Shown here: one piece after another, positions 1,286 through 49,080 of the stretch
Numbering within the stretch: position 1 is the first letter of the stretch
Layout: every line of letters begins with the position of its first letter
Origin: Carcharhinus longimanus
Lineage: Eukaryota
Length of the DNA stretch: 64,000 nucleotides
Direction of reading: 5' to 3'
Assembly (NCBI GenBank): GCA_030264375.1
Contig: JASCQW010000105.1
Span: forward strand, 44,533,234-44,597,233
Made by a program: the position numbers and the translations under genes
Notes under the pieces: generated by a model
Databases searched by the model: none
Told to the model about the DNA's origin: nothing
Seen by the model: the letters and a program-made list of their open reading frames with translations, nothing else

Positions 1286-1608
1286 AAGTTGAGTTCAACA
1301 ACTACAGAGCACATACTCTCTCCTGTAGGCTGTTTTCACAGTAAATTCATTGCAATGTTAATGTAAGCCTACTTGTGATGTTACTGCCATTCCATTTTAT
1401 TTATTTCATTTTTCCTTTTTTAAATTATTTTCAATTTTAAAATCTTCCATCATTTCATTTGACACTTCTTAAAAAGCTCACTTTCTATCTTGTTTCCCCA
1501 CCCACCCTACTCTGGCCATTTGTCACTTGTCGGGTTGTCCTTTGACATGCTGCCTTTTGTTCTGCCGTTAACACAATCTCTTAATGAGCTGCTGTCAACA
1601 TCCTTCTT

Positions 1609-1757
1609 TAAGTCCAACTGATTTATTTGATAGTACACTCACTAGTTTTCAACCCCGAAAGCTAGTGAGTGTACTATCAAATAAATCAGTTGGACTTAAA
1701 CCTGGTGTTGTCAGACTTTTTGTGTTTACCCCAGTCCAACGCCGGCATATCCACATC
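1609..1757 (+). mobile_element. Short Penelope-derived fold-back insertion with 11-bp TSD
   Basis: Inverted arms 1607-1650 and 1657-1700 match at 43/44. The 3' end is ccccagtccaacgccggcatatccacatc. ACATCCTTCTT is duplicated at 1598-1608 and 1758-1768. Confidence 0.85.
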
Positions 1758-2019
1758 ACATCCTTCTTCACCATGATCACAACTCTTTCCATTCCCTTTG
1801 TCCTTTTGTCAATGACACATTTGTCACTTGCATCCCATCCACCCCCCCCACCCCCCTCCCAATCCCTAGAGTATAAATCTTGTCCTATTTTCTTTGTCCT
1901 CAGCTTTCATAAAGGGTCATCCAGACTCGAATGTTAGCTCTGTTACCTCTCGAGAGGTGCTGTCAGAACTGCTGAGACTTTCCAGCACTTTTTTTTGTTT
2001 TTCTCTCCATACCTATTTT

Positions 2020-7101: not shown

Positions 7102-7290
7102 ATGATGTGGAGGTGCCAGCATTGGACTGGGGTAAACACAGTAAGAAATCTCTCAACACCAGGTTAAAGTCCAACCAGTTTATTTGATAGTAATTCCACA
7201 AGCTTTCAGAAACGATGTATCGTTTCCGAAAGCTTGTGGCATTACTATCAAAAACTGGTTGGACATTAACCTGGTGTTGTGAGATTTCTT
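7102..7290 (-). mobile_element. Short Penelope-derived fold-back insertion with 13-bp TSD
   Basis: Inverted arms ~7143-7216 and 7219-7290. The family 3' end reads on the minus strand (gatgtggaggtgccagcattggactgggg on +). ATTGAAGGAGGTG is duplicated at 7089-7101 and 7291-7303. Confidence 0.87.
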
Positions 7291-9497: not shown

Positions 9498-9955
9498 ATG
9501 GTCATCGCTGGCAAGGCCAATTTTTGTTGCCCATCCCTAATTGCGCTTAAAGTAAATACAGTAAAGTCTCAATACCAGGTTACAGTACAACAGGTTTATT
9601 TGGAATCACGAGCTTTCAGAGCTCTGCTCCTTCATTCAGGGGTGTGTGTGTGTTTGGGGGGGCGGGGGGGAGATGCAGGTGGGGCACTCGCCTGATGAAG
9701 GAGCAGCATTTTGAAAGCTCTTGATTCCAAATAAACCTGTTGGACTTTTAATCTGGTGTTCTGAGATTTCTTACTAGTCCAATACCAGCATCTTCACATC
9801 TAAAACTAAATAGCTTGCTTGGCCATTTCAGAGAGCAGTTCAAAGTCAACGATATGGCTATGGATCTGAAGTGACATGTAGGCAGATCAGGTAAAGATGG
9901 CAGATTGCCATTAACATTGAGCAATGCAATTACTACAATGCCACCATCTCCTCCC
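9498..9955 (-). mobile_element. Meta-domain-type tRNA SINE with Crack-like LINE tail, interrupted by a Penelope-derived insert
   Basis: gcccatccctaattg tail, plus gcttgcttggccatttcagagagcagttcaaagtcaac...gacatgtaggcagatcaggtaaagatggcagatt, the reverse complement of the central domain at 61200-61290. Confidence 0.7.
9559..9800 (+). mobile_element. Penelope-derived inverted-end insertion with degenerate hammerhead motifs
   Basis: The arm at 9559-9640 is the inverse of the arm at 9690-9776. The + arm has CTGATGA (9692-9698), AGGAGCAGCATTTT, GAAA (9713-9716), then GCTC. Confidence 0.8.
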
Positions 9956-48349: not shown

Positions 48350-49080
48350 AAATAACACCTCCTGACTTTCTAGAGCTTGTCCACCATCTACAAGGCACAA
48401 TTCAGGAGTGTGATGGAATACTCCCCACTTGTCTGGATGGGTGTAGCTCCAAAAACACTTAAGAAGCTTAAAACCATCCAGTTTAAAGCAGCCTGCTTGA
48501 TTGACACCCAATCCACAATCATTCACCTCCTCCACCACCGATGCACCTGGCAGCAGTGTGCACGAACGACAAAATGCACTGCAAGAACTCACCAAGACTT
48601 CTTAGACAGCGTCTTCCAAGGCCAAAACCACTACCATCTAGAAGAACAAGGGCAGCAGATACATGGGAACTCCACCACAAGGAAGTTACGTCCAAGTAAC
48701 TCACCATCCTGACTTGGAAATATATATTGTAAAAAGTCTCACAACACCAGGTTAAAGCCCAACAGGTTTATTTGGTAGCAAATGCCACTAGCTTTCGGGG
48801 CTTTGCCCCTTCGTCAGTTAAGTTGGGAGAACTTCTTACTATGCTTACCCCAGTCCAACGCTGGCATCTCCACATCTTAGAAAAGTATCACCATTCCTTC
48901 ACTATCAATGGGTCGAAATCCTGGAACATCCTCGCTAACAGCACTGTGGGTGTATCTACACCATAGGGACTGCGGCAGTTTAAAAAGACAGCTGATCACC
49001 ACCTTCTCAAGGGCAGTTAGGCATGCCAATAAATGCTGGCCTAGCCAATGAAGCTCACAAACCCATAAATGAACATAAAA
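48350..49080 (+). mobile_element. CR1-group (Crack/Daphne-like) LINE 3' portion
   Basis: LSTIYKAQFRSVMEYSPLVWMGVAPKTLKKLKTIQFKAACLI, with tail aataaatgctggcctagcc. Confidence 0.82.
48728..48876 (+). mobile_element. Penelope-derived insertion with an inverted 5' segment carrying an intact hammerhead core on the minus strand
   Basis: Minus strand 48817-48789 reads CTGACGA-A-GGGGC-AAA-GCCCC-GAAA-GCTA. The + strand ends ccccagtccaacgctggcatctccacatc. Confidence 0.82.

What the first reader, a model, noticed from the sequence alone, without database searches (positions are those of the whole stretch)
1598..1768. 149-bp TSD-flanked hairpin element folded back at a hammerhead stem II
Seen: 44-bp arms matching at 43/44 around a 6-nt loop, an 11-bp TSD, and the 3' end shared with 7102, 9559 and 48728. 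The apex is AGTTTTC-AACCCC-GAAAGCT, the GAAA/AGCT half of the family hammerhead mirrored, with CTGATGA missing. Both arms share variants (tgatagtacactc) absent from the other copies. Established: Penelope-like elements carry minimal type I hammerheads and often form inverted ends. Inference: the second arm was copied from the first at insertion, by cDNA snap-back at the ribozyme stem.
Basis: partly seen in the sequence, partly recalled or inferred. Interest (0 to 1): 0.72.

Follow-up and report, generated by a model that had tools for sequence, protein, structure and literature searches.

The report
Ordinary double-primed Penelope retrotransposon stub
This 149-base DNA hairpin is real but is one of thousands of short back-to-back end pieces of a Penelope-type jumping gene; its fold point does not use the ribozyme stem, and it likely formed when both cut DNA strands each copied the element's RNA and the two copies were joined.

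Summary
In detail: 44-bp arms (43/44), a 6-nt loop and an 11-bp TSD. Six of 11 paralogues of the host repeat run straight across the empty site. The element is the end (pLTR plus tail) of a Penelope-like retrotransposon with an inverted, tail-less 5' copy, a published layout. About 2,300 such inverted copies match exact anchors in this genome. The 'private' variants are subfamily alleles. Both arms do come from one source lineage (110 of 112 pairs agree at one diagnostic site, 50 expected). Snap-back at stem II is not supported. This junction has no microhomology and lacks the 5' strand of stem II. Breakpoints in 170 gap-free copies spread along the end, and the rate at GAAA/stem II is among the lowest. 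In 89 of 170 copies the inverted arm holds sequence the direct arm lacks. The inverted arm starts at a near-fixed internal site (47 of 55), like the second RT start seen in vitro. Best reading, inferred: twin priming of both target strands, then end joining. It is not a MITE (exact apex in 2 copies). This scan noted the same pattern before (163 notes, at least 27 genomes; 42 in this genome).

The parts
1598..1608 (+). Left target-site duplication ACATCCTTCTT; its last TT also pairs with the element (2-nt microhomology)
   Evidence: empty-site paralogues; family TSDs mostly 11-15 bp, found in 139 of 200 copies
1609..1650 (-). Inverted, tail-less copy of the pLTR end (element positions about -62 to -103 counted from the 3' end); starts about 25 nt further in than the usual -28 to -41 site
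1651..1656 (+). Loop AACCCC: part of loop II plus the 3' strand of hammerhead stem II; blunt junction with no microhomology
1657..1671 (+). 3' half of the minimal hammerhead: GAAA, palindromic AGCT, predicted cut site after 1664, 3' strand of stem I (GTGAGTG). No CTGANGA core, so predicted unable to fold as a ribozyme
   Evidence: landmarks mapped on intact copy L021; motif scan; no Rfam hit at gathering
1651..1757 (+). Direct, 5'-truncated pLTR end (-109 to 0); 1657-1700 pairs with the inverted arm; carries a 3-nt deletion near 1720
1720..1757 (+). One-sided 'tail' of about 35-38 nt beyond the usual start of inverted arms
   Evidence: PMC8557442, PMC11167929
1758..1768 (+). Right target-site duplication; its first 5 nt repeat the element's last 5 nt (ACATC)
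1480..2000 (+). Host: an older, different repeat split by the insertion; decayed hammerhead-like motif at about 1906-1939
   Evidence: 2 of 11 paralogues keep CTGACGA...GAAA in the aligned region

Best explanation
The hairpin is a one-off, 5'-truncated insertion of the end of an abundant Penelope-like retrotransposon, with an inverted tail-less copy and an 11-bp TSD, and it likely arose by twin priming. Inferred steps: the element's GIY-YIG endonuclease makes a staggered cut. The bottom-strand end primes reverse transcription at the RNA's outer start (tail end). The top-strand end primes a second cDNA on the same or a sibling RNA at an internal start, usually the tail boundary, and here likely about 25 nt further in through a TT/AA microhomology. 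Both cDNAs stop early at roughly independent points and are joined head to head, bluntly in this copy and by microhomology or short templated patches in most others. The hammerhead is a passenger. Its helices guide a few percent of junctions, as any short inverted match does, but not this one.
For: Shown: at least 826+484+1027 inverted-arm copies match exact anchors. The outer end of the inverted arm falls at -28 to -41 in 47 of 55 copies found in a sample of 89 anchored only on the 3' end. Inner breakpoints spread from -33 to about -170, with correlation -0.08 between arms. 89 of 170 gap-free copies have an inverted arm reaching at least 10 nt further 5' than the direct arm; 45 versus 34 of 122 when both arms are limited to the same range. 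Microhomology of 2 nt or more occurs in 49 of 81 insertion-free junctions against 17.5% by chance, and 22 of 36 longer insertions share an 8-mer or more with the element or flank (no chance control was run for that count). Arms agree at diagnostic sites: 110/112, 168/177, 29/31 against 49.7, 111.4, 19.4 expected. Published: the anole PLE protein cuts and extends both strands, starts RT at two internal sites that bound the tail with no difference between strands, is predicted to be a dimer, and needs no ribozyme cleavage (PMC11167929).
Against: Twin priming is not observed directly, and arm identity cannot tell it from fold-back. Near-symmetric junctions are somewhat enriched (27 of 122 against 17.4 shuffled, p about 0.01; sampling by total length may inflate this). 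47 of 170 copies are geometrically compatible with fold-back, including this one. The focal inverted arm does not start at the usual internal site (minority class, 5 of 53 uncensored). Most long copies (26 of 30 in the longest class) have N at the junction, so the resolved sample favours short or lopsided copies. Deletion at the centre of a palindrome after insertion could also create lopsided arms.
Confidence: 0.62

Rival explanations
1. Fold-back (self-priming) of the first cDNA or of an antisense template at any inverted microhomology, with the outer end set by endonuclease resolution at the tail and later central deletions making the arms lopsided.
For: The focal geometry (inverted arm begins 6 nt inside the direct arm) allows it, as do 47 of 170 copies. 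Modest excess of near-symmetric junctions. Nested mini-hairpins and templated patches occur at junctions. Self-priming was proposed for PLE junction palindromes (PMC3846280) and endonuclease resolution for the tail (PMC8557442).
Against: It needs a second event in 89 of 170 copies. The outer end matches an RT start site that was shown in vitro on both strands. The focal junction has no priming microhomology.
Confidence: 0.22
2. One reading: snap-back specifically at hammerhead stem II.
For: The focal breakpoints lie at stem II/GAAA. Stem II-paired junctions exist: 3 of 35 apex-selected loci (L359, L362, L369) plus L002, L003 and L009 from a query-biased set.
Against: The focal copy lacks the 5' strand of stem II and has 0 microhomology. 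Breakpoint hazard at stem II/GAAA is 0.011 and 0.009 per nt, against 0.012-0.025 elsewhere for the inverted arm and 0.005-0.10 for the direct arm. Both ends fall there in 3 of 170. Non-ribozyme palindromes guide junctions as often.
Confidence: 0.05
3. Retrocopy of a transcribed, already hairpinned parent copy, 5'-truncated inside the inverted arm.
For: It would explain the unusual outer end at -60/-62 and both arms sharing the A allele at CpG site -72 (A/A in only 2 of 76 pairs). One other copy (L007) has the same apex.
Against: L007 carries different subfamily alleles, a different outer end and a different TSD. No other same-subfamily copy shares the apex. The -72 A allele also occurs in direct-only copies of this subfamily (L018, L021).
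Confidence: 0.08
4. A pre-formed MITE-like or self-copying ribozyme hairpin family.
For: The element is short, non-coding, has long inverted repeats and a TSD.
Against: The exact apex occurs in 2 copies, against 293 hairpins that reach stem III with varied apices. Lengths form a continuum. The inverted repeat is not terminal, and there is no catalytic core.
Confidence: 0.02

Closest known systems
Insertion unit of EN+ Penelope-like elements: 5'-truncated copy, adjacent inverted 5'-truncated copy, one-sided 30-40-bp tail, TSD (PMC8557442 Fig. 2 text; PMC3846280 Pen2a_Av)
   Same: Same layout; tail on one end; TSD; hammerhead motif in the pLTR; RT, then GIY-YIG-type endonuclease, then pLTR in longer related copies
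   Different: Only 149 bp, no ORF left; the inverted arm starts about 25 nt further in than usual for this family
Neptune/Nematis-type PLEs (CX2-5CxxC linker between RT and EN, PMC8557442)
   Same: Related copies L408 and L412 read C-x4-C-x2-C just before the endonuclease; L406 has the same spacing
   Different: No tree was built; those copies belong to related subfamilies (about 76-86% identical to the focal arm); not checked against Repbase or Dfam
Anole Poseidon PAc internal RT initiation (PMC11167929)
   Same: Two element ends about 35 nt apart; insertions keep sequence on both sides of the ribozyme cut site
   Different: The main text read (parts 1-2 of 4) does not describe how inverted ends are joined; here that is inferred from genomic copies
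Minimal type I hammerheads of metazoan PLEs (PMC4209133)
   Same: Intact family copies have CUGANGA, stem II, GAAA, palindromic AGCU and a 7-bp stem I
   Different: The focal copy keeps only the 3' half, mirrored; it is a remnant, not a ribozyme
LINE-1 twin priming (recalled from memory; not read here)
   Same: Second-strand end primes internally on the RNA; head-to-head junction; TSD
   Different: In L1 the two segments do not overlap; here they overlap and give a hairpin, and the second start is near-fixed

Membership tests
EN+ Penelope-like element | pLTR end linked upstream to a PLE-type RT | tested here: met
   Related copies L418 and L422 have YIDD-bearing RT stretches (RVT_1 E 4.9e-4 and 2.8e-5, below Pfam's gathering score) upstream of the EN end and of a pLTR 81-82% identical to the focal arm. 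Not present in the focal stub.
EN+ Penelope-like element | C-terminal GIY-YIG endonuclease | tested here: inconclusive
   A VYLIRC...WYIG-type motif is seen by eye in L405, L408, L412 and others, and the EN C-terminus is contiguous with the focal subfamily's end in L332 (arm 94% identical). Pfam gave no hit for 2 of 2 EN stretches.
EN+ Penelope-like element | Inverted 5'-truncated copy at the 5' end, one-sided 30-40-bp tail, TSD | tested here: met
EN+ Penelope-like element | Hammerhead motif in the pLTR | tested here: met
   Intact in family copy L021 and at least 2301 matches to a pattern spanning part of the motif; 3' half only in the focal copy
Neptune/Nematis clade | CX2-5CxxC linker between RT and EN | tested here: met
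   (L406, L408, L412), related subfamilies only
Neptune/Nematis clade | RT phylogeny | not tested
   no tree built
Minimal hammerhead ribozyme (focal copy) | CUGANGA core, stem II, stem I | tested here: not met
   core and 5' strands of stems I and II are absent; Rfam 0 hits
Minimal hammerhead ribozyme (focal copy) | GAAA, palindromic stem III, UH site | tested here: met
   GAAAGCTA at 1657-1664
Minimal hammerhead ribozyme (family) | Self-cleavage | not testable with these tools
   needs an RNA assay
MITE / pre-formed hairpin family | Many copies with the same ends and internal structure | tested here: not met
   exact apex in 2 copies; continuum of lengths
MITE / pre-formed hairpin family | Inverted repeats at both termini | tested here: not met
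   57 unpaired bases follow the right arm

The most novel reading that the evidence does not exclude
Thousands of these stubs record the unvalidated late steps of Penelope integration. A dimeric RT-endonuclease primes cDNA from both strands of one cut at two fixed RNA start sites, the two cDNAs are joined by microhomology or templated end joining, and a subset runs off an RNA 5' end or pause just upstream of the hammerhead core (-125 to -130), 30 nt after a TATA-like box.
Probability: 0.5. Interest if true: 0.55.

Novelty: new member of a known kind. Interest (0 to 1): 0.24.

Why it matters
The copy itself is ordinary transposon debris with no predicted ribozyme activity. Its value is as one data point in a large natural series. 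How PLEs make their inverted ends is still open: PMC11167929 leaves the later steps unvalidated, and PMC3846280 proposed self-priming. The series argues against a ribozyme-stem snap-back and for two-ended priming, which the existing in vitro system can test directly.

Tried and rejected
Rfam scan of the window: 0 hits at gathering. Stem II hotspot: rejected. Pre-formed apex family: rejected (2 exact, 5 with one mismatch, of which L328 and L330 are an unrelated repeat and L329 another subfamily). A sharp RNA 5' end at -129: only partly supported. For it: 14 of 24 direct arms at risk end at -124 to -130, and 16 of 35 apex-selected loci have an arm ending at -125 to -129. Against it: counted by eye over 98 of 100 rows (2 rows of another family dropped), 16 arms end at -124 to -131, 16 at -132 to -141, 2 at -142 to -154, and 64 run on. 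RNA: no RNA holder listed, which is no evidence either way. Apex in other samples: no listed contig spans it, uninformative. No empty allele among the listed joints (lists were cut). First Pfam scan of 7 ORFs near family copies: 0 hits. Literature: 'Penelope' + 'twin priming' gave 3 papers, none on PLE insertion by title or abstract; 'Penelope' + 'inverted' + 'snap-back' gave 0; the five-term search gave 15, none PLE-mechanism papers by listing. Subscription papers are not covered.

Full report
Observation. The hairpin is as described: arms 1607-1650 and 1657-1700 with one mismatch, a 6-nt loop, and an 11-bp direct repeat at 1598 and 1758. It folds far better than shuffles. The element sits inside an older repeat, and 6 of 11 paralogues of that repeat run across the site with the target once, so the TSD is real. 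Contigs from other sequencing runs carry each junction (3 of 4 runs laid for each side), though none listed spans the apex.

Identity. The window lies in a 2.68-Gb genome; a shark or ray is my guess from recalled repeat content. The last 38 nt of the family occur exactly 859 times. Longer copies run upstream through an intact minimal hammerhead (CUGANGA -123 to -117, stem II -116 to -104, GAAA -103 to -100, predicted cut after -96, counting the last base as 0), then a 3' UTR, then the end of an endonuclease-like ORF. Related copies add a C-x4-C-x2-C linker and RT stretches (weak Pfam RVT_1 hits, no Pfam hit for the endonuclease). This is an EN+ Penelope-like element, probably Neptune type. The layout of an inverted 5'-truncated copy, a one-sided 30-40-bp tail and a TSD is described in PMC8557442 (passages) and PMC3846280 (passages). 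Minimal hammerheads in pLTRs are described in PMC4209133 (passages).

The shared variants. The three other window copies belong to other subfamilies (79-84% identical), so they were the wrong comparison. The focal alleles are common in its own subfamily. Across copies, the two arms agree at non-CpG diagnostic sites (110 of 112, 168 of 177, 29 of 31; expected 49.7, 111.4, 19.4) but only at chance level at CpG sites. Arms within a copy differ 4.4% (54 copies) against 8.4% between copies. The arms therefore come from one source lineage and then decay separately. One mismatch in 44 is unremarkable against 4.4%.

Breakpoint map. Exact anchors in the inverted arm and the tail find 826, 484 and 1027 copies in three length classes. 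I parsed 200 (77, 93 and 30, taken in genome order; 5 gapped rows of the middle class were not fetched and entered only the inverted-arm hazard). Of these, 170 are free of N; four short copies were corrected by hand. The focal copy has its direct arm starting at -109 and its inverted arm spanning -103 to -60/-62. In the family, both inner breakpoints spread from -33 to about -170 and are uncorrelated. The per-base rate at GAAA/stem II is 0.011 (inverted) and 0.009 (direct), the lowest and second lowest of the regions. Both ends lie there in 3 of 170, and both lie within the whole hammerhead in 29 of 170. Microhomology is strongly enriched: 2 nt or more in 49 of 81 insertion-free junctions against 17.5% expected. 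It uses any short inverted match: stem I (L243, L253), the AGCT/CTAG palindrome (L139, L230, L234), stem II (3 of 35 apex-selected loci) and non-ribozyme matches. The focal junction has none. A stem II snap-back would have kept the GGG strand, as in L002 and L003. The exact apex occurs twice in the genome, among 293 hairpins reaching stem III, so this is not a pre-formed family.

Mechanism. Two features favour priming from both target ends. First, in 89 of 170 copies the inverted arm holds at least 10 nt that the direct arm lacks. The anchors favour this class, but with both arms limited to the same range the split is still 45 versus 34 of 122, as expected for two roughly independent cDNAs. 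The window copy at 48731-48876 is of this lopsided kind. Second, the outer end of the inverted arm lies at -28 to -41 in 47 of 55 copies from a sample anchored only on the 3' end. PMC11167929 (parts 1-2 of 4 read) shows that a PLE protein cuts and extends both strands, starts RT at two internal sites that bound the tail, and does not need ribozyme cleavage. The joining step is my inference. Against it: a modest excess of near-symmetric junctions (27 against 17.4), 47 fold-back-compatible copies including this one, the unusual outer end of this copy, possible later deletion at palindrome centres, and heavy gap bias in long copies (26 of 30).

Side result. Arm ends are enriched just upstream of the catalytic core in two samples but only broadly in a third (counted by eye). 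A TATA-like TTTATAT lies 30 nt upstream of -129 in intact copies. No pile-up at the predicted cut site was evident.

Novelty. The layout is known and the copy is ordinary. I found no paper stating twin priming for PLEs in three searches, which do not cover subscription journals. A 2026 preprint on PLE-derived retrozymes gave two passages with nothing on inversions. No supplements were read. This scan's own notes reach the same twin-priming reading many times. They are unchecked and not independent support; I had recorded this reading before looking.

Verdict. Real feature, member of a known kind; the stem II snap-back is not supported; twin priming is the likely mechanism (about 0.6). Interest 0.24.

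Noticed in passing
window 1480-2000: The element is nested in the end of an older, different repeat whose hammerhead-like motif is decayed at about 1906-1939; 2 of 11 paralogues keep CTGACGA...GAAA.
   Followed up: partly
window 9559-9800: Another inverted Penelope end whose direct arm keeps CTGATGA...GAAA at 9692 and whose loop holds about 45 nt of GT/G-rich non-element sequence.
   Followed up: no
window 48731-48876: Strongly lopsided copy: the inverted arm reaches the CTGACGA core while the direct arm is little more than the tail.
   Followed up: partly
window 7104-7290: Minus-strand hairpin copy of another subfamily with an 8-nt loop and an apparent 13-bp TSD, read by eye.
   Followed up: no
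L021:1449-1482 region and family copies: TATA-like TTTATAT 30 nt upstream of position -129, where arm ends are enriched; possible pLTR promoter.
   Followed up: partly
L008, L009, L012, L182, L206: The two arms differ at a subfamily site (GTTTA versus GTGTA), always with one allele per arm; might mark use of two RNAs or a recurrent mutation.
   Followed up: no
L091 and L292 junctions: Junction patches that look copied from the element's ORF end, several hundred bases upstream (read by eye).
   Followed up: no
window about 1720: The direct arm has a 3-nt deletion right at the tail boundary, where inverted arms usually start.
   Followed up: no
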